A stretch of DNA of 64,000 nucleotides from Octopus vulgaris. Taxonomy: Eukaryota. The position numbers were made by a program, and so were the translations under genes. The stretch is taken from positions 99,696,001 through 99,760,000 of the forward strand of contig OX597815.1 in NCBI GenBank assembly GCA_951406725.2, in the 5' to 3' direction. Shown here one piece after another: positions 4,529-60,757 of the stretch; position 1 is the first letter of the stretch, and each line of letters starts with the position of its first letter. The notes under the pieces were generated by a model, which did not search any database, was not told the origin of the DNA, and saw only the letters and a list, made by a program, of their open reading frames with translations.

Positions 4529-4686
4529 AATTTATCATTTTCTGAGCGTTATACTAATACATCTGTTTGTTTTCTACACCACCTGTCTTCGTCTTTTATT
4601 TTTTTGTGAATTCTCCCCCTATAAATATATATATGAGTTAGTAGACAACCGAAAGAAGGGCACTCAACACATTTATTGGGAGTTAC

Positions 4687-4831
4687 ATGTATGGATCAAA
4701 ACAGTTTGATTCAATCACCTTGGTACTCTGAGTTTCATGCATGTCGCTAGTCTTCGGACTTCAATGGTCGAAGACTAGCGACACGCTTAAAACACAGAGT
4801 ACCAAGGAGTTTGAATCAAACTGTTTTGATC

Positions 4832-4838
<7 letters not shown>
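4687..4838. repeat. Imperfect 150-bp hairpin with a degenerate hammerhead motif in each arm
   Basis: atgtatggatcaaaacagtttgattcaa...tgtcgctagtcttcg pairs with cgaagactagcgaca...ttgaatcaaactgttttgatccacacat. The minus strand of the left arm reads CCGAAGA-ctagcgacatgcat-GAAA-ctcagag-TA. Confidence 0.8.
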
Positions 4839-4890
<52 letters not shown>

Positions 4891-7370: not shown

Positions 7371-8177
7371 CTATTTGAATCTAGAAAAGGTGAACGGTAG
7401 CCTATGAATACAAAAGAAGTTTTTTTCATTAATGTTGTTAATAATTTGCCGACCCGCTTTAATAATGAAGAAAATTTCATTAATACATAGAGAGCATTTT
7501 TTATTTTTTCCATTATACACAGGTGCTGAAGTTAGTATTTTCCAGTTTAATCTAAAATCTAAGTTCTTACTTTTAAGTTCCCAAATGTATGCACTTAGCC
7601 CTGTAGAGTACATTCTATTTTTATTCCTAAAAGTATATCTGTGATAATTCCATCTTTGTTTAATGCTATTCATAGTTGCCCCGATATACACCCTACTACT
7701 CAATTGTGTATCTACAGTGCATTGGTAAACTACCTCCTTCCTGAGGCATTGATTACCAAATACACATTTATTTTTATTTCTGCAATTACAAAGATTAACA
7801 GAATGAGGAAATCTAAGATTGGACACCACCCCTATACTACTATTCACATTATAAGTGTTACAATTGTTATCATCATCCAAACCCAAAATCAACGAATGAG
7901 TTAATTTCACATTATCGGCTATATTCCTATCACTAGTACTAGTATTGGTAGTAGTAGTATGATCTATTACATTTATATTATCTCTGACAGGTACGGTGCA
8001 CTCATTATTAGTAAGGAGGTTGTTCCCATTCGTTCCAAGAAAGTTTCTATTCCTATTATTAATGAAGAGGGGCAAGTTTTCCTGGTCTAAATTCAATTTT
8101 CTATCCTTATAGAAGTGATCCAGTTTCTTAGGAGAGAATATATGAGAGTTGGTTTGCTTGAAAATAGATCTAAGTCT
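7371..8177 (-). CDS. Penelope-like GIY-YIG endonuclease domain with Cys-rich motifs (C-terminal part of a retroelement ORF; RT absent)
   Basis: [15 protein letters not shown]...VVYQCTV...VYIGAT...KQRWNYH...[12 protein letters not shown]...WKIL...KKCSLCINE...CIHR. The frame is open upstream of the tracked TTG start (8096) to a stop at 8178-8180, adding [14 protein letters not shown]. Confidence 0.85.
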
Positions 8178-8275
8178 TCAACACTGCAATATATATATAT
8201 TGCTATTTTCAAGCAAACCAACTCTCATATATTCTCTCCTGTGAGGAGATAAGCCTCTTTTCTCCATGTATATAC

Positions 8276-12269: not shown

Positions 12270-12392
12270 TAATAATAAATCTCTGAGCGAGGTATAAACA
12301 GTAACTGCTCTTTAATATAAGTGGGATCAGCCATCTGAACACCCCCACCACCCCGCCCTGTCCCTAGCCACGTTCAGATGGCTGATCCCGCT

Positions 12393-12400
<8 letters not shown>
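12270..12400. mobile_element. Short asymmetric inverted-repeat insertion, same family as the 59360-59822 palindrome
   Basis: 12270-12340 matches the reverse complement of 59755-59822. 12339-12400 matches 59721-59783. Arms are 12313-12340 and 12372-12399; (TA)n lies on both sides. Confidence 0.8.
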
Positions 12401-12906: not shown

Positions 12907-13326
12907 ACAATTGCAGTGTGGAAGGTGTTTATAAGCCATTTAAGAAACGCACAAAAACCGTTAGATTCACTTCAACATTTAAATTTAATTTGCCAAAATA
13001 TTTTCTTCGCTTCGAGACCGCGACCTATTCACTGACAAAATTTCGTGCTGCATCAGTGAACACTTGATGTAGGGCTTCCGTGTTGAATGTGAGGCCGTGT
13101 GGGTAGATAAATCACTAATGATTACTTCAAACACCATCAGTATCCCTGATTTTGTCAGTGAACAGGTCGCGGTCTCAAATCGACGAAAATATTTTGGCAA
13201 ATTAAATTTAAATGTTGAAGTGAATCTAACGGTTTTTGTGTGTTTCTTAAATGGCTTATAAACACCTTCCACGCTGCAATTGTTTTCATTCCAGCACACG
13301 ATCTCAGATCAGGTCACTTGCTATGC

Positions 13327-25726: not shown

Positions 25727-26040
25727 GAAATGGAGAAACTCTCAAAATACAAAGACCTGGAAATAGAGATAACTAGAATGTGGAACCTGAAAACAGAAAC
25801 AATTCCTATCATAGTAGGTGCATTAGGCATGATAAAAAAATATTCAGACAAATACATAACAAAAACTCCAGGACTTACAAACACATATAACATACAGAAA
25901 ATTGCACTACTAGGCACTGCACACATCCTACGCAGAACACTTTCCATACAATAACCATCAGAGCATCACAACAAATCACAGCACATACCCAAGGCACACA
26001 GAGCTGCGCTCGGTAGTGAATTGAAAGCACGCTATAAAAA
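25723..26040 (+). mobile_element. 5'-truncated Dong/R4-type 3' end between (AAT)n tracts
   Basis: KEMEKLSKYKDLEIEITRMWNLKTETIPIIVGALG...IQKIALLGTAHILRRTLSIQ* followed by a short 3' UTR. Confidence 0.85.
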
Positions 26041-26048
26041 TAATAATA

Positions 26049-26174
<126 letters not shown>

Positions 26175-28925
26175 GTCCAAGCAAAAGCCCAAAGAATACG
26201 AAGATTTGAGAAGAGAAACAAGTTTTACAAGCAAAATAAGCTGTTCACATCCAATGCCAAAAAATTCTACAGAGAAATAGGGAAGGAGAAAGTAACCGTT
26301 AAAGACCCTCCTCCCATGGAAGAAGTTCAAAACTTTTGGGAAAGGATTTGGAGTGACAAGAAGACGTACAACATAAATGCAGACTGGATTATACAAACTG
26401 AAGGATCCTACCAAAATTTACAACAACAAGCATGGGAAGACATCACAATAGCAGACCTAAGAAAGGCACTCACGAAGGCCCATAATTGGAAATCCCCCGG
26501 TAAAGATAGGGTGCCGAATTTCTGGCTCGCATCGCTCCCGTGCGCACACGGTAAGCTAGTTCAGCTGCTTAATGGAATTTTGAGAGACCCAAAGAAAACA
26601 CCTGAATGGTTAGCAAGTGGCATTACTTACCTACTCCCAAAGAATAACGAAACCAACCTTCCCAAAAACTATCGGCCTATAACCTGTCTATCCACCACGT
26701 ATAAAATCCTAACATCTATCCTGGCGGAGAAAACATATGCATTCATGGAGAAGAACGATATTTTCCCCATTGAACAAAAAGGGTGCCGCCGAGGCTCTTA
26801 CGGATGCAAAGATCAACTGCTAATCAATCGTATGATCCTTGAGAACTGTCACAACAAGCGCAGAAATCTCAGCACCGCATGGATTGACTATAAAAAGGCC
26901 TTCGACAGTATACCGCATCCATGGATCTTGAGATCGCTGGACATCTTTAAAATTTCCCCTGTGATTTCAAACTTCCTGAAGCACAATATGTCGTTGTGGA
27001 ATACGAATCTCCAATTATACCACTCTAATGGAGTACTTGCCTCAGAAAATATAAACATCAACTGTGGAATTTTTCAAGGTGACTCACTTTCACCTTTAAT
27101 ATTCTGCATAGCCCTAATACCCCTTACAAGTGAATTAAACAGAACAGGGTATGGGTATAAAATTGCCAATAAAAAAATAAGCCATCTATTTTATATGGAT
27201 GACTTAAAACTTTATGATAAAGACAATAATGAACTTGAAGGCCTATTGCGCACCGTGAAAGCATTCAGCGATGACATCGGGATGGAGTTTGGACTTGAGA
27301 AGTGTGCCAAGGCCACTTTCCAGAAAGGGAAAGTGAAGACCACAAATTCAGTCGTGTTAGATGTTGACACAGTCATAAGAGAGCTTGAGCAAGAACAGAC
27401 ATACAAATATTTAGGGATAAATGAAGGCTCTGGTATTCAGCATGCAAGCATGAAAGAGAAAATCAGGAAGGAATGTTATAGGAGAGTTCGTGCAGTCCTG
27501 AAATCTGAACTAAATGCACGTAACAAGGTATTAGCTATAAATTCCTTAGCAGTTCCAGTTGTTACTTATAGCTACAATGTGTTGAACTGGAATATGAGTG
27601 AAGTAAAGAATATAGATAGAAAAATACGCAAGCTGCTGAGTTGTAATAGGATGCACCACCCAAAGGCAGACGTAGATCGCCTTTACCTTCCCAGAGCCCA
27701 AGGAGGTCGAGGCCTGATCCAATTTGAAATAGCTTACAAAACAACCACAATTGGACTGGCCAAATATCTCGAAATATCGAATGACTGGATGCTAAAGCTC
27801 GTGGAAAATCACGAGAGACGAAAGAAGCTTCATTCTATCATCAAGGAAAGCAAAAAATTTGCTATTGATCTCGTGCAGGATACCCAAACTGAACAACCCG
27901 AGGGAAGTACGGCAACTATTGTTGCAAAGAAGGTGAAAATGATGGCAATGAAAAAAGCGCACGAGCAATTGGCTGATAGGTGGGAGGAGAAACCTCTGCA
28001 CGGCAAATATGTGACCCGCAGCAAACAAGCTGATGTTGACCAGAAGCAAACCCATCAGTGGCTGCGGAGCTCAGGGCTAAAAGCAGAGAGCGAAGGTTTC
28101 ATCCTGGCTGCTCAAGACCAAAGCCTATTAACCCGGAACTACCAGGCCAATGTGATGAAAAATGGAGCAGACCCAAAATGCCGATTCTGCAACGACATGA
28201 TTGAAACAGTGGACCACCTAATCTCTGGATGTAAAGTCTTAGCACCAGTGGAGTATAAATTAAGACATGACAGAGTTGGCCAATATCTACACTGGCTAAT
28301 AAGTCGGCATTACAATATCAAAACTGCCGACAAGTGGTATAATCACCACCCTGAGGCTGTAACTGAAGGAGAAAATGTAACCATTCTGTGGGACTTTCCA
28401 GTACATACAGACCGAACCATCAAGGCCAATAAACCAGATATTGTTGTGAAAGACCAAAACAATAAAGTTTGCTTATTGATCGACATGAGCATCCCCTGTG
28501 ATCATAATATCTCAGCGAAAGAGTTTGACAAGCTCAGAAAATATAAAGACCTACTCATTGAAATTGAGAAAATGTGGCATCTCAAGGCGGTTACAATACC
28601 AGTGATCGTAGGAGCACTAGGAATGATCAAGAAGGGAACCGAAAATTATATGAGAATGATCCCTGGCTTACCATCCCTGCAAGAAGTGCAAAAGATTGTC
28701 TTAACTGGTACATCACACGTATTGAGAAGAGCATTGTCGATGTGAGAACTGTTGCTGCTCATGTATTTTAATTTAACTTTAAAAAAAAAAAAAAAAAAAA
28801 ATGAACGAACTACTGAGTTTGGTTTAATGGCCTACCAATATACACTATGAGTTTCTTTGCCCTAGGAGTCGGGAAGACACTCGGCAAGAAATGGAAGAAA
28901 ATTTGAAAGAAGAAAAAAAAAAAAA

Positions 28926-28926
<1 letters not shown>
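26175..28926 (+). mobile_element. Dong/R4-clade non-LTR retrotransposon (RT plus restriction-like endonuclease), 5'-truncated, inserted in (AAT)n
   Basis: Uninterrupted ORF from the (AAT)n junction at 26175 to the stop at 28745, a 180-bp 3' UTR ending in A-rich sequence, then (TAA)n. TAA-repeat targeting is known for Dong elements. Confidence 0.92.
26316..28745 (+). CDS. Reverse transcriptase - CCHC zinc knuckle - RLE (PD-D/ExK) polyprotein, N-terminally truncated
   Basis: KSPGKD, NYRPITCL, IDYKKAFDSIPH, GIFQGDSLSPLIF, YMDD, YKYLG, CRFC-x8-H-x4-C, RHD, NKPDIV...LIDMSIP, KLRKY. The frame is also open for 47 codons upstream (VQAKAQRIRRFEKR...) to 26175. Confidence 0.95.
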   Translation: MEEVQNFWERIWSDKKTYNINADWIIQTEGSYQNLQQQAWEDITIADLRKALTKAHNWKSPGKDRVPNFWLASLPCAHGKLVQLLNGILRDPKKTPEWLASGITYLLPKNNETNLPKNYRPITCLSTTYKILTSILAEKTYAFMEKNDIFPIEQKGCRRGSYGCKDQLLINRMILENCHNKRRNLSTAWIDYKKAFDSIPHPWILRSLDIFKISPVISNFLKHNMSLWNTNLQLYHSNGVLASENININCGIFQGDSLSPLIFCIALIPLTSELNRTGYGYKIANKKISHLFYMDDLKLYDKDNNELEGLLRTVKAFSDDIGMEFGLEKCAKATFQKGKVKTTNSVVLDVDTVIRELEQEQTYKYLGINEGSGIQHASMKEKIRKECYRRVRAVLKSELNARNKVLAINSLAVPVVTYSYNVLNWNMSEVKNIDRKIRKLLSCNRMHHPKADVDRLYLPRAQGGRGLIQFEIAYKTTTIGLAKYLEISNDWMLKLVENHERRKKLHSIIKESKKFAIDLVQDTQTEQPEGSTATIVAKKVKMMAMKKAHEQLADRWEEKPLHGKYVTRSKQADVDQKQTHQWLRSSGLKAESEGFILAAQDQSLLTRNYQANVMKNGADPKCRFCNDMIETVDHLISGCKVLAPVEYKLRHDRVGQYLHWLISRHYNIKTADKWYNHHPEAVTEGENVTILWDFPVHTDRTIKANKPDIVVKDQNNKVCLLIDMSIPCDHNISAKEFDKLRKYKDLLIEIEKMWHLKAVTIPVIVGALGMIKKGTENYMRMIPGLPSLQEVQKIVLTGTSHVLRRALSM

Positions 28927-28964
<38 letters not shown>

Positions 28965-33905: not shown

Positions 33906-33925
33906 TATTATTATTATTATTATTA

Positions 33926-34338
33926 CTTATTTTTTTCTTCTTTCAAATTTGCTTCCATTTCTTGCCGAGTGTCTTCCCGACTCCTAGGGCAAAGAAACTC
34001 ATAGTATGCATTGGTAGTCCATTAAACCAAACTCAATAGTTCGTTCATTTTTTTTTTTTTTTTTTTTAAAGTTAAATTAAAATACATGAGCAGCAACAGT
34101 TCTCACATCGACAATGCTCTTCTCAATACGTGTGATGTACCAGTTAAGACAATCTTTTGCACTTCTTGCAGGGATAGTAAGCCAGGGATCATTCTCATAT
34201 AATTTTCGGTTCCCTTCTTGATCATTCCTAGTGCTCCTACGATCACTGGTATTGTAACCGCCTTGAGATGCCACATTTTCTCAATTTCAATGAGTAGGTC
34301 TTTATATTTTCTGAGCTTGTCAAACTCTTTCGCTGAGA

Positions 34339-34339
<1 letters not shown>
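33926..34339 (-). mobile_element. Near-identical 5'-truncated copy of the 26175-28926 element
   Basis: ISAKEFDKLRKYKDLLIEIEKMW...HVLRRALSM differs at one residue from the long copy. It has the same 3' UTR and (TAA)n on both sides. Confidence 0.92.
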
Positions 34340-34369
<30 letters not shown>

Positions 34370-40204: not shown

Positions 40205-40239
40205 AGCATATATATATATATATATATACATACATATAT

Positions 40240-40275
<36 letters not shown>

Positions 40276-40328
40276 GTACATACATACATACATACATACA
40301 TACATACATACATACATACATACATACA

Positions 40329-40359
<31 letters not shown>

Positions 40360-40372
40360 GCATATACGTAGG

Positions 40373-41818
40373 TGTAACGTTGATGTTCTGGTGATCTGAT
40401 CAGCGAGCTTTCTTGATTTGCATTGATTTTGTTAGAGTACAGTAGTATTGTATAATGATGAGTTTTGTACTTTTAGTTCTCTACGGAGCTGAAGCTTATC
40501 AAGTTGTCGAAAGTGTATCCCGTTTCAGGAAGCCCTCAATCTCCTCGATAAAACTTTATCAAGAAAACCTTTTCTACAATGGCTCCACACAGACTACGTA
40601 ATTATACTGAAGCAGGAGATCAGTCAATACAAGGCTTTCTATTAGAGTTAAAAGAAATCTTGCAAAGTGTATCATATACAGAAAAACAACGTAACTTACT
40701 AATTCGCGATTCTTTCGTCTCAAGAATAAATTTACCGACCATTCCTCAACGCTTACTTGAGTCTACAGAAGACGACCTAGGACCATTAGATAACATTGCT
40801 TTAACCTTTGAATTAGCCAACGAGGACAACCGCTCTACTAGATACTGTATCATATTGGACCTTTATTTGTTTAGATCATACAAAAGAATTTGGGCTTCCT
40901 CTCAAAAAAGCATATCCTTTTAGTTGAAAACAGACAATTTAACATCCGTGAAGCGTATTTAGTACCTCATGAGTGAGATGGATGCTATTACGAAGTAGAA
41001 GTGTAAACTGTTGAGTCACATGTGTCACCCATTGATTAAAAATGAACGTTTTAAGACTGCACAAAGTGGTAATGTTAAATCTAGACGGTAATAGGGACCC
41101 GATGTTTGTTTGAGTTCCTCATAAGGAATTAATTTGCCAACGTTTAAGTCTGCTACCCGGCGTCGATATGTCTAATCTATCAACGATCGCTACGAAATCC
41201 CGACGAAACCATCGTCATAGACAGTCCATCGAAGGTGAAATCAAGAGAATTTTGAAAGACGATTATTAAATAGGAAAGTAGAAGCACATCATGCGCACGG
41301 TCATTCGCCGTATAAAGAGAGAGAGAATAAGTGAAGACTTTGATTTAACTCTACCAAATCATAAATCGCTTTATTCCTATTTACGCTTATTCTGCTGCTA
41401 ACAGTGGTTATTTATTCAAAAGAATTGCGTTCAGTCATCACATCTCTACTATTGACCTGCAAGAAGCCTAGCCATTGCGCGAATAGGATTTTCATTTGAC
41501 TGCCTTCGAAGTCAGTAACAAACTGTCCGAATTTACTCGCCTGTCATTCGAGTGTACCTATGCTGATGCCATCTTTCAACGCATTATGGATTCATTTATT
41601 CAGGAAGAACACGACTGTAATGTGGTCAAATTCCTGTAGGCAGCTGAGCAAGCCGGCATGCATCTGAAACGGGATACACTTTCGACAACTTGATAAGCTT
41701 CAGCTCTGTAGAGAACTAAAAGTACAAAACTCATCATTATACAATACTACTGTACTCTAACAAATCAATGCAAATCAAGAAAGCTCGCTGATCAGATCAC
41801 CAGAACATCAACGTTACA
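40373..41818 (+). mobile_element. Decayed Gypsy-type LTR-retrotransposon remnant (gag and RT pieces) bounded by about 155-bp inverted repeats
   Basis: gag-like HRL...DQSIQGFLLELK...LIRDSFVSRI...QRLLE (40579-40830). RT-like STIDLQEA, TAFEVSNKLSEFTRLSF...AIFQRIMDSFI and EHDCNVVKFL (41444-41670). 40373-40528 is the reverse complement of 41664-41818. Confidence 0.8.
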
Positions 41819-41848
41819 CCTACGTATATGCATATGTATGTATGTATG

Positions 41849-41880
<32 letters not shown>

Positions 41881-42040
41881 TGTATGTATGTATGTATGTA
41901 TGTATGTATGAATGTATGTATGTATGTATGTATGTATGTATCTATCTATATATCTGTCTATATATATATGTAGGTCCCGGGTTGAGTCGGGGTTAACCAC
42001 AGTAAATAAGGTACTCAATACATAGCAGAGTAAAGTAATT

Positions 42041-42166
42041 TATTTTATAGAAGGAGCTTCTACAGGACTAGAACTGTTTCATTCAGATGAAATCTTCAGG
42101 AAGCTTCCTGAAGATTTCATCTGAATGAAACAGTTCTAGTCCTGTAGAAGCTCCTTCTATAAAATA
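42041..42166. repeat. Perfect 126-bp palindrome with a hammerhead-like core in each arm
   Basis: Axis in aagctt (42103/42104), no mismatches. The right arm reads CTGAAGA (42108-42114)-tttcatctgaat-GAAA-cagttctag-TC. Confidence 0.9.
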
Positions 42167-42186
42167 TATATATATATATATATATG

Positions 42187-58534: not shown

Positions 58535-59261
58535 TAAAAAAGGGGCAATCAGAATTTTGGATAATTCTTTAGTAGCGCTTTCGTTCATTTAACCGAACTC
58601 TTCAAAGGAAATTGAACCTAAATAATAAAAACAGAACGCTTCATCGTTTTTTACATGAATCGAAGAGCGGATGTCTTTTGTTTTGTGTAGAAGAGGAGAA
58701 AATGTTGTCTTTTGAAGAAAGGGAGAAAGAGAGGAAGATAGTGAGCAGGACATTCGAGAAAGAATAAGAAAAGCAAAGGTAGGGAAAAGATAGAGAGAGA
58801 GAGAGAGAGAGATTTCTTTACAATCATATTGTATTGGCGTAGTTAATATACATACGGACACTATGCATGAACACGCCTTCAAATTGAACAAATTATGGAC
58901 ACTACGTAGTTAGCTTACACAGACGTTGCGCCCAGCTAATACAACTGTGAAGAAATTATGGAAGTACTTGAATGCTCCAGTTTGGCCCTCCTCCAAACAT
59001 ACCATTTTAAAATCAGTCAACATTAGAACGAATGTACCTTTTCATTGACTTTGAACTCTTTTCATTTCATACTTTATATTTGTGTTGCACTCACTTAAGT
59101 ATAATTTTCTCACTCCTCAAAATGTAATGTGTATAGCCACAAACACGTTAATATGTATCCATCTTCGTTTTTCTCTTTTAAACAAACAGAAGAACGTATA
59201 TGTACACATATTCGTACTCACACATGCACACAAACATACACAGATACACACAGACACATAA

Positions 59262-59332
<71 letters not shown>

Positions 59333-60442
59333 ATTTCTTTAATCCTAATATATATATATATAACATAAGGGACGTTAGCCATCTGAATGTGGCTAGGGAC
59401 AGGGCAGGGCGGTGTTGGTGTTACTGATGCATTTAGCCCCAGGCGATCATCAACGTCACCAGGAGGACTGACGCCATCACGGCGTCCTCTAGCCTGCAAA
59501 GGGAGATCATTCCCCGAAGAATCGGATGCCACATACGGACCTAGGTTTCAAGGTGTTTGCCTATTATCAACGTTGATAATAGGCAAACACCTTGAAACCT
59601 AGGTCCGTATGTGGCATCCGCTTCTTCGGGGAATGATCTCCCTTTGCAGGCTAGAGGACGCCGTGATGGCGTCAGCCCTCCTGGTGACGTTGATGATCGC
59701 CTGGGGCTAAATGCATCAGTAACACCCCCACCGCCCTGCCCTGTCCCTAGCCACATTCAGATGGCTAACGTCCCTTATGTTATGGAGCAGTTACTGTCTA
59801 TATCTCGTTTAGAGAATTATTATATATATATATATATATATTCACAAACATTAATATGTATATAATGATAGAAAGAAAAGGAAAACAGAAAGAGACGCAA
59901 CCAAAAATGACATCTTGAATTGCGATTTAATATCAATGGCTTGACCACATATTAATCAGAAAATGTGTATATTTACAAATATGTTAATATGTATATAATG
60001 AGAGAAGAAAGAAAAAAGGAAAAAGGAAGGAATGCTTCCGAAAACAATGACTGAAGCAAGAAAACTACTTGAATTGCAATTAAATCTCAATTCGTTGTCC
60101 ACATCGATCCAGTATAATTGAAAAGAAAGCCTTCCCTCTTCATCTTTTTCTTCCTCCTCTTTTTTCTTATCTTTCCCATCCTTCTTCCTAAAATTGACAT
60201 CTTGAAAGGTCATATAGCCACTACCTCCTACCCCCCTCCTCTCCTCCCTTCCATATTCACAAACAGTACAGTATGTATATAATGAGAAAATGTGTATATT
60301 TACAAAAATGTTGATAGATATATGAGATAAAGAAAGGAGAGAGAAAATGCTTTCAAAAGTAATGACTGAATCAAGAATAGCGTCTTGAATTGTAATTAAA
60401 TTTCAATTGCTTGACCACATCAATAAAATATAATTGAAAAGA

Positions 60443-60478
<36 letters not shown>

Positions 60479-60757
60479 ATTTATCTATCTCTCTATCTTC
60501 CTCCTCTTTGCATTTCTTACTCTTTCTTGAGTGTGATGCTCACTATTTTCCTCTCATTCTCTCTTTTTCCAAAAGACAAAATTTTCTCCGATTCTAAACG
60601 AAACAAAAACGTAATAAACATCCGGTCTTTGATTCATATAAAAAAATGATAAAACGTTCGGTTTTTATTATTTGGTTCAATTTTTCTTGATAGGTTCTGT
60701 TAAACGAGCGAAAGCGCTAATAAAGAATTATCCAAAATTCTGACGGCCTCCTTTTTC
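58535..60757. repeat. Old long inverted repeat pair (about 58535-58835 and 60420-60757), probable foldback DNA element
   Basis: tcagaattttggataattctttagtagcgctttcg pairs with cgaaagcgctaataaagaattatccaaaattctga. Similarity continues through a (GA)n/(TC)n tract. Confidence 0.75.
59360..59822. mobile_element. 424-bp near-perfect palindrome (59360-59783) plus 39-bp tail, hammerhead-like core next to the axis
   Basis: Axis in aacgtt (59571/59572), 4 mismatches counted over 212-bp arms. The right arm starts acg-TTGATAA-t-agg(caaaca)cct-t-GAAA-cctagg-TC-cgt. (TA)n lies on both sides. Confidence 0.9.

What the first reader, a model, noticed from the sequence alone, without database searches (positions are those of the whole stretch)
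59360..59822. 424-bp GC-rich palindrome whose axis abuts a variant hammerhead core (UUGAUAA)
The right arm begins acg-TTGATAA-t-agg(caaaca)cct-t-GAAA-CCTAGG-TC-cgt. Stem I (acg/cgt), stem II and a palindromic stem III with a GUC site are all in place, while the core differs from CUGAUGA at positions 3 and 8 in both arms. C3 and G8 form a tertiary pair in hammerheads, so U3-A8 is a compensatory change, which argues for a functional variant rather than decay. This is the clearest example of the snap-back architecture.
Basis: partly seen in the sequence, partly recalled or inferred. Interest (0 to 1): 0.75.

Follow-up and report, generated by a model that had tools for sequence, protein, structure and literature searches.

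The report
Mirror-image insertion of a ribozyme retroelement
This 424-base palindrome is one copy of a multi-copy, non-coding repeat carrying a known variant of the hammerhead RNA motif; a Penelope-type retrotransposon likely pasted it into an AT repeat back to back, and this truncated copy is predicted to be inactive, so it is a new example of a known kind of insertion.

Summary
The palindrome is real: 59360-59783, 212-bp arms, 4 mismatched pairs, plus a one-sided 40-bp extension, in (AT)n. Head-to-head arms, a one-sided tail and a microsatellite target are the published footprint of Penelope-like element (PLE) insertions. Natural U3-A8 cores are also published. They also show that this copy keeps only 3 bp of a likely 6-bp helix I, and the long hairpin disfavours the ribozyme fold by about 68 kcal/mol, so it is predicted to be inactive. 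One low-depth contig joins the tail head-to-tail to the next hammerhead, implying a ~356-nt retrozyme-like parent. A second, diverged copy at 12272-12400 has the same two ends, no hammerhead, and a lopsided junction that simple snap-back cannot make without a later deletion. Two cDNAs primed from the two nicked strands and joined at a short self-complementary word fit both copies (inferred). This scan already reported palindromic mini-PLE insertions on other DNA (e1-7858806). Verdict: new member of a known kind, with a testable twist.

The parts
59360..59571 (-). Left arm: inverted copy of the element without the tail, ending at the family's inner 3' end (equivalent of 59783)
   Evidence: 98.1% match to 59572-59783; it differs from the right arm at 4 letters, none listed as a family variant
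59572..59783 (+). Right arm: 5'-truncated sense copy of the element
   Evidence: X9 record 26 matches 59595-59782 with 1 other letter in 188
59784..59823 (+). One-sided 40-bp extension, likely the PLE-type 'tail' between two fixed 3' ends; both ends read TTAT next to (AT)n
   Evidence: 7 X1 contigs leave at 59783 into (AT)n, and X7 records 23 and 24 end at 59823; the same two ends occur at 12272 and 12400
59570..59573 (.). Native 4-bp self-complementary word ACGT on which the axis is centred
   Evidence: 5 contigs (X3: 1, X7: 4) align through 59570 and differ from the window before it (table 7)
59570..59608 (+). Truncated type I hammerhead: U3-A8 core (U3 = 59573, A8 = 59578), U10.1.U11.1, hexaloop CAAACA, palindromic helix III, GUC site 59603-05; helix I only 3 bp here
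59535..59573 (-). Mirror copy of the truncated hammerhead in the left arm
   Evidence: core starts at 59570 on the minus strand
59609..59618 (+). Unpaired remainder of the helix I 3' strand, whose likely partner lies in the upstream sequence missing from this copy
   Evidence: by-eye pairing with loose-end letters; duplex controls were weak
59346..59359 (.). Left (AT)n target remnant
59824..59841 (.). Right (AT)n target remnant; a target-site duplication cannot be read in it
12272..12400 (.). Second, diverged (81-86%) head-to-head insertion of the same family in (AT)n: tail-bearing arm 12272-12340 (-), tail-less arm 12338-12400 (+), 3-nt overlap, no hammerhead
   Evidence: BLAST 74.3 and 65.3 bits against a maximum of 31.9 in 100 shuffles; alignment

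Best explanation
The palindrome with its one-sided 40-bp tail is one insertion, in an (AT)n microsatellite, of a multi-copy non-coding repeat family with a U3-A8 hammerhead motif, likely a ~356-nt retrozyme-like unit that a Penelope-like element's reverse transcriptase/endonuclease likely inserted in trans. Steps: (1) The parent RNA likely carries a complete type I hammerhead. The core and its conservation are shown; the 6-bp helix I is inferred from loose ends; cleavage is untested. (2) A PLE protein likely nicks both strands of (AT)n and starts reverse transcription at two fixed internal sites 40 nt apart. The two fixed ends are shown in two window copies and in the runs; the enzyme is inferred from published PLE work. 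(3) The copy runs about 35 nt past the GUC site (shown), so its template was likely uncut or re-ligated RNA. (4) The two minus-strand cDNAs, one growing from each target end, likely annealed at the native self-complementary word ACGT and were filled in, giving a head-to-head palindrome with the tail on one side. This step is inferred, about 55:45 against fold-back copying. (5) The result keeps 3 bp of helix I (shown) and is predicted to be locked in a 212-bp hairpin, so it is predicted to be an inactive copy.
For: Architecture: head-to-head arms, a one-sided 30-40-bp tail and (TA)n targets are described for PLEs. The tail equals the interval between two RT start sites, and the anole PLE protein nicks and extends both strands and uses mainly uncleaved RNA. 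Family: 374, 754, 249 and 4 contigs laid in runs X1, X3, X7, X9; 7 X1 contigs leave at 59783 into (AT)n; no variant row at U3, A8, GAAA or GUC; the one frequent change inside the ribozyme (59601 A>G, 29-48% of depth in the three large runs) keeps the dimer helix III paired through G.U. Parent: X9 record 25 carries 59753-59823, then 102 other letters, then 59570-59597, same strand, 0 differences, which gives a 356-nt unit. Mussel (350-390 bp) and axolotl (330/350 bp) retrozymes are that size, and the axolotl Amex2 ribozyme has the same U.U at the base of helix II and cleaves. Loop 2 CAAACA is one letter from the Schistosoma CAAAUA loop. Two-cDNA step: in copy 2 each arm holds sequence that the other lacks, with a 3-nt overlap. 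At the main axis a fold-back would rest on 1 pair and a 2-nt loop, whereas two ACGT ends give 4 pairs. A GIY-YIG remnant lies at 7371-7805 (-); one long homologue shows RT and GIY-YIG motifs by eye.
Against: The 356-nt unit rests on one contig of depth 2.3 in a run only guessed to be RNA, and the 102 letters were not displayed. No tandem array or circular RNA was shown. The element is 53% GC, whereas non-LTR retrozymes are described as below 50%. 59606-59823 folds no better than shuffles (z = -0.05, 92 of 200 as stable), whereas retrozyme circles are described as highly self-paired. The helix I extension is by eye: the three loose-end motifs alone were matched or beaten by 199, 190 and 1144 of 5000 shuffles, and other 17-mers paired better. 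No autonomous partner was found: the GIY-YIG remnant shows no BLAST match to the element and no Pfam match itself. No contig crosses this axis in 4 of 4 runs. A later central deletion also explains copy 2, and three window palindromes (59.57, 42.10, 4.76 kb) fit fold-back as well.
Confidence: 0.62

Rival explanations
1. Same element and enzyme, but the second arm was made by fold-back (snap-back) copying of the first cDNA, or by self-priming, as the first reader implied and as Arkhipova et al. 2013 proposed in a related form.
For: The left arm is wholly contained in the right arm and shares the same allele at 14 of 14 family-variable sites (product of allele shares 0.1-0.9% if independent, at most 21-30% if fully linked). 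The 42.1-kb and 4.7-kb palindromes are also nested. Junction palindromes were read as self-priming in PMC3846280.
Against: Copy 2 has arms that are not nested. Fold-back does not by itself explain why the second arm stops at the family-wide 59783 end. A hairpin at ACGT would have 1 pair and a 2-nt loop. One RNA or one subfamily feeding both cDNAs also explains the shared alleles.
Confidence: 0.4
2. It is the truncated pseudo-LTR end of an ordinary autonomous PLE, and the head-to-tail contig is a one-off partial tandem or rearranged locus rather than a retrozyme unit.
For: Most PLE insertions are 5'-truncated, and dual opposite-strand minimal hammerheads 100-700 bp apart were reported in Schistosoma. 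One frame is open through the tail, as pLTR tails often overlap the ORF start. Only one contig shows the short unit.
Against: The only displayed contig that runs past the tail returns to the hammerhead after 102 nt. Between the two window copies the changes in that open frame are mostly amino-acid-changing (read). The ribozyme looks canonical (hexaloop, likely 6-bp helix I with an internal loop) rather than minimal.
Confidence: 0.25
3. The palindrome is a locally functional unit: a self-cleaving or long double-stranded RNA kept for a host role.
For: A perfect 212-bp hairpin could feed small-RNA or editing pathways (general knowledge). The U3-A8 core is intact.
Against: The right arm is nearly identical to a run contig (1 difference in 188), as expected of a recent insertion. 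Helix I is truncated and the ribozyme fold costs 67.6 kcal/mol. Nothing shows conservation of this locus.
Confidence: 0.05
4. The mirror image is a library or assembly artefact (fold-back chimera).
For: No contig covers 59545-59564 in any of 4 runs.
Against: The flanks differ and do not mirror each other; the arms differ at 4 letters; the left arm stops at the family-wide 59783 end; copy 2 and other families in the window show the same design. Short-read assemblers tend to break at hairpins (general knowledge).
Confidence: 0.03

Closest known systems
EN+ Penelope-like element insertions with inverted pLTR and one-sided tail (Arkhipova et al. 2013, PMC3846280; Craig et al. 2021, PMC8557442; Frangieh et al. 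2024, PMC11167929)
   Same: Head-to-head inverted 5'-truncated copy, palindromic junction, inverted copy shorter by one tail length (37 bp in Pen2a_Av, 40 bp here), (TA)n target, hammerhead near the 5' edge of the terminal repeat.
   Different: No ORF: the whole insertion is two terminal pieces, and the only displayed downstream contig returns to the hammerhead after 102 nt instead of entering an RT ORF.
U3-A8 hammerheads (Perreault et al. 2011, PMC3088659; about 1,300 hits in Schistosoma mansoni PLE-type minimal hammerheads, Cervera & de la Pena 2014, PMC4209133)
   Same: Same core covariation. U10.1.U11.1 is also reported in natural hammerheads, and opposite-strand pairs 100-700 bp apart were noted in S. 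mansoni.
   Different: Here U3-A8 and U10.1.U11.1 occur together, with a short helix II and a hexaloop of canonical type rather than the long helix II of minimal PLE motifs.
Metazoan non-LTR retrozymes (Cervera & de la Pena 2020, PMC7229834; Li et al. 2026, bioRxiv 10.64898/2026.07.22.740005), especially axolotl Rtz_353/HHR_Amex2 and mussel 350-390-bp repeats
   Same: Likely ~356-nt non-coding unit with one type I hammerhead, 2-bp helix III with a palindromic tetraloop, U.U at the base of helix II; molluscan host likely.
   Different: In the parts read, those papers describe tandem or monomer copies and argue PLE mobilisation from shared features, co-occurrence and phylogeny, not from inverted, tailed insertions. 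GC is higher here; circles and tandem arrays were not shown.

Membership tests
Type I hammerhead ribozyme | Core with a 3-8 Watson-Crick pair, U4 G5 A6 A9, G12 A13 A14, A15.1-U16.1 and H17 | tested here: met
   59573-79, 59594-97, 59604-05; U3-A8 is a published natural form
Type I hammerhead ribozyme | Stable helix I in this genomic copy | tested here: not met
   3 bp only; hairpin penalty 67.6 kcal/mol
Type I hammerhead ribozyme | Helix I of about 6 bp with internal loop 1 in the parent | tested here: inconclusive
   By eye, the loose-end letters of 6 contigs extend it, one variant with a mismatch; duplex controls on the motifs alone were weak
Type I hammerhead ribozyme | Core conserved across family copies | tested here: met
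   0 of 14 substitution rows fall in the core; 4% threshold; edge effects possible
Type I hammerhead ribozyme | Match to an Rfam hammerhead model | tested here: not met
Type I hammerhead ribozyme | Self-cleavage at the GUC site | not testable with these tools
   needs an in vitro assay
EN+ PLE-type insertion | Inverted 5'-truncated copy joined head-to-head | tested here: met
EN+ PLE-type insertion | 30-40-bp tail on one side only, with fixed ends | tested here: met
   59784-59823; same ends in copy 2 and in run contigs
EN+ PLE-type insertion | (TA)n microsatellite target | tested here: met
   2 of 2 window copies; 7 X1 contigs
EN+ PLE-type insertion | Target-site duplication | tested here: inconclusive
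   cannot be read inside (AT)n
Autonomous PLE | ORF with RT and GIY-YIG endonuclease in the element | tested here: not met
   no ORF of 120 aa or more in 59360-59823; X9 record 25 returns to the hammerhead after 102 nt
Non-LTR retrozyme | Head-to-tail unit of 150-450 bp with one type I hammerhead | tested here: inconclusive
   one contig, depth 2.3, implies 356 nt; no genomic array seen
Non-LTR retrozyme | Expressed as linear and circular monomer RNA | not testable with these tools
   only contigs of a run guessed to be RNA
Non-LTR retrozyme | Highly self-paired RNA | tested here: inconclusive
   218 of about 356 nt folded as a linear strand: z = -0.05
Non-LTR retrozyme | GC below 50% (descriptive trait in PMC7229834) | tested here: not met
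   53% over the palindrome; the 102 unseen letters could shift it
tRNA-derived SINE | tRNA-like head | tested here: inconclusive
   ARAGORN found 0 genes in 59300-59900; the parent's upstream 102 nt were not seen

The most novel reading that the evidence does not exclude
An octopod ~356-nt retrozyme with a U3-A8, U.U hammerhead leaves dispersed copies that carry the full PLE integration footprint (two fixed internal start sites, head-to-head inversion, (AT)n target). That would be sequence-level evidence that PLE machinery moves retrozymes. The copies would also show that PLE inversions are built from two cDNAs, one primed on each nicked strand from uncut or circular RNA, joined at a short self-complementary word rather than by snap-back.
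Probability: 0.33. Interest if true: 0.58.

Novelty: new member of a known kind. Interest (0 to 1): 0.35.

Why it matters
What remains of value: which enzyme mobilises animal retrozymes is still argued indirectly, and how PLE inverted ends form is unresolved. A short, abundant family with fixed ends and variable junctions makes both questions testable by counting in an assembled genome.

Tried and rejected
No whole genome is held for this window, so copy number, tandem arrays and the autonomous partner could not be sought. Rfam: 0 matches at gathering score; 8 weak non-hammerhead matches at E<=10, treated as hairpin or microsatellite noise. Exact-pattern scans found 0 loci in metagenome contigs, viral contigs and prokaryote genomes. 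No RNA holder listed on record; 2 of the 24 listed runs held next to none of the words, and 2 more held a 0.06 share that I did not lay. I laid 4 of the 24 runs. No contig covers the left-arm side of the axis. The short open frame through the tail was rejected as a conserved ORF start because most changes in copy 2 alter amino acids. Hammerhead cleavage as the cause of the axis was rejected: the axis is 34 nt upstream of the GUC site, and copy 2 has no hammerhead. Unconstrained folding of the short hammerhead stretches did not give the hammerhead fold (z 0.5-1.05). The duplex test of helix I was weak. Pfam did not recognise the 7.4-kb endonuclease remnant; 1 of its 9 homologues tested had a sub-threshold GIY-YIG match, E = 0.0013, and P0139 had no PDB match. 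Look-ups of this scan's findings by sequence, genome and relatives were empty. Literature searches that showed no listed paper on this family or on inverted, tailed retrozyme insertions: (titles and abstract starts; open-licence library only). The supplement of PMC7229834 could not be read, and the supplements of PMC4209133 and the 2026 preprint were not seen; they may list cephalopod retrozymes or this family.

Full report
Observation. The window is microsatellite-rich animal DNA (34% GC). The only named protein among four homologues looked up for a window endonuclease remnant is from Octopus bimaculoides (62% identity), so the host is likely an octopod. At 59360-59783 there is a zero-spacer palindrome with 212-bp arms, 4 mismatched pairs and 53% GC. 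A 40-bp extension follows on the right only (59784-59823), and (AT)n lies on both sides. A relaxed descriptor finds it in both arms and finds one other palindrome at 42.1 kb: 4 sites, against 0.73 per shuffled window and 0.03 with a palindromic stem III (30 shuffles). Rfam does not detect it.

The family. 22 of 24 listed public runs hold the right arm or part of it, 19 with half or more of the words, under four organism codes; none is on record as RNA. I laid 4 runs on 59545-59826 at 80% likeness with a 4% threshold: 374, 754, 249 and 4 contigs. Of 14 substitution rows, none is at U3 (59573), A8 (59578), GAAA or GUC, and no T>C change is listed. The one substitution inside the ribozyme, 59601 A>G (29%, 29% and 48% of depth), keeps the self-dimer helix III paired through two G.U pairs; a one-letter insertion in loop 2 occurs in 2 runs. 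Limits: U3 lies 3 letters from the edge of homology, 61 loose ends were not displayed, and the runs were chosen for holding this sequence.

This copy is truncated. Six contigs (X3: 1; X7: 4 + 1) continue upstream of 59570/59571 with letters unlike the left arm. By eye, the last three loose letters of the X7 majority (CAT) pair with 59609-11 (ATG), extending helix I to 6 bp. After a 3-by-1 internal loop, six further letters pair with 59613-18, and the three variants differ there by G.U/Watson-Crick exchanges; the X3 variant has one mismatch in the inner helix against the window's letters. With loop 2 CAAACA, one letter from the Schistosoma CAAAUA, this resembles a canonical, tertiary-stabilised type I hammerhead. 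The computed support is weak: each motif alone was matched or beaten by 199, 190 and 1144 of 5000 shuffles, and the first folded in another register. In the window only 3 bp of helix I remain, and forcing the hammerhead fold costs 67.6 kcal/mol against the -444.9 hairpin. The copy is predicted to be inactive.

The parent. X9 record 25 (201 nt, depth 2.3) matches 59753-59823, then has 102 other letters, then matches 59570-59597, on one strand with no differences. That is a head-to-tail junction of a 356-nt unit, tandem or circular. Mussel retrozymes are 350-390 bp, and the axolotl 350-bp family has a U.U pair at the base of helix II and cleaves. Against: it is a single contig in a run only guessed to be RNA; GC is above the <50% described; and 59606-59823 folds no better than shuffles. 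I put a retrozyme-like parent at about 0.65-0.7.

The insertion footprint. Seven X1 contigs leave at 59783 into (AT)n, and listed X7 contigs end at 59823. A second family copy at 12272-12400 (74.3 and 65.3 bits against at most 31.9 in 100 shuffles) sits in (AT)n with the same two ends, the tail on the other side and no hammerhead. An inverted 5'-truncated copy, a one-sided 30-40-bp tail and (TA)n bias are standard for PLEs. In vitro, the tail is the interval between two internal RT start sites, the protein nicks and extends both strands, and uncleaved RNA is the main substrate. In agreement, the right arm reads about 35 nt through the GUC site.

How the mirror formed. Both arms carry the same allele at 14 of 14 family-variable sites, so they come from one molecule or one subfamily. 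Fold-back requires one arm to be contained in the other. That holds here and at 42.1 and 4.7 kb, but not for copy 2, where the tail-less arm has about 34 nt that the other lacks and the other has the tail, with a 3-nt overlap. A later microhomology deletion could produce this, and such deletions are reported for Penelope copies. The alternative is that each nicked strand primes its own cDNA at one of the two start sites, and the two 3' ends anneal where they are complementary. This gives head-to-head orientation, the one-sided tail and both junction types, and the main axis sits on a native ACGT that offers 4 pairs between molecules but only 1 in a hairpin. I favour it about 55:45; it is inference. 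Unexplained: in three different families in this window (59.57, 42.10, 4.76 kb) the axis lies 1-10 nt upstream of a hammerhead or hammerhead-like core.

Comparison with what is known. U3-A8 and U10.1.U11.1 are natural variants. U3-A8 gave about 1,300 hits in S. mansoni, where opposite-strand motif pairs were also seen. It works like a PLE-mobilised non-autonomous element and meets the PLE footprint tests; it fails the autonomous-PLE test; retrozyme membership is likely but not established. My searches listed no paper on this family or on inverted, tailed retrozyme insertions; unread supplements may bear on this.

What I saw of each paper. PMC11167929: parts 1-2 of 4. bioRxiv 10.64898/2026.07.22.740005: parts 1-3 of 5. 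PMC4209133: parts 1-2 of 4. PMC7229834: parts 2-4 of 6, supplement unreadable. PMC8557442: 12 of 22 passages. PMC3846280: 8 passages and the Discussion. PMC3088659: 6 passages. PMC2632901: 12 of 28 passages. PMC6962438: 2 passages (235 hammerhead loci in giant squid). No figures were seen. The hammerhead numbering and the label 'Neptune-like' for the endonuclease remnant's cysteine linker are from recall.

Verdict. Real feature; new member of a known kind; interest 0.35. The retrozyme-with-PLE-footprint and two-cDNA reading has probability about 0.33 and would merit about 0.58.

Noticed in passing
window 41972-42169: Another zero-spacer head-to-head palindrome in (AT)n from a different family: C3-G8 core, U10.1.U11.1, 6-bp helix I, axis on AGCT 4 nt upstream of the core, one-sided extension of about 66-69 bp.
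   Followed up: partly
window 4625-4841: Older imperfect palindrome (89% arms) with a degenerate hammerhead-like core next to its axis and a one-sided extension of about 60 bp, between AT repeats.
   Followed up: partly
window 7371-8240 (-): GIY-YIG-like endonuclease ORF remnant with an Asn-rich linker, likely the 3' part of a Neptune-like PLE; a short inverted duplication (8130-8240) marks its 5' truncation. No BLAST match to the studied family.
   Followed up: partly
window 12907-13283: 135-bp inverted arms (96%) around a 107-bp spacer, with unique sequence beyond the right arm; possibly another PLE-type inverted insertion.
   Followed up: no
window 26025-28946 and 33906-34345: A non-LTR reverse transcriptase ORF (RVT_1, E = 3e-29) whose 3' end recurs inverted 5 kb away at 97% identity.
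   Followed up: no
window 59685-59764: Summed contig depth is about ten times higher here than over the hammerhead in X1, X3 and X7, suggesting many short 5'-truncated copies or a sister subfamily. It includes a small hairpin (59748-59767) kept in copy 2 with a G.U change.
   Followed up: no
window 40220-40528 and 41664-41969: 309-bp inverted repeat at 95% identity about 1.1 kb apart, next to the 42.1-kb palindrome.
   Followed up: no
window 58537-58802 and 60484-60756: Diverged (82%) inverted repeat pair that brackets the studied insertion.
   Followed up: no
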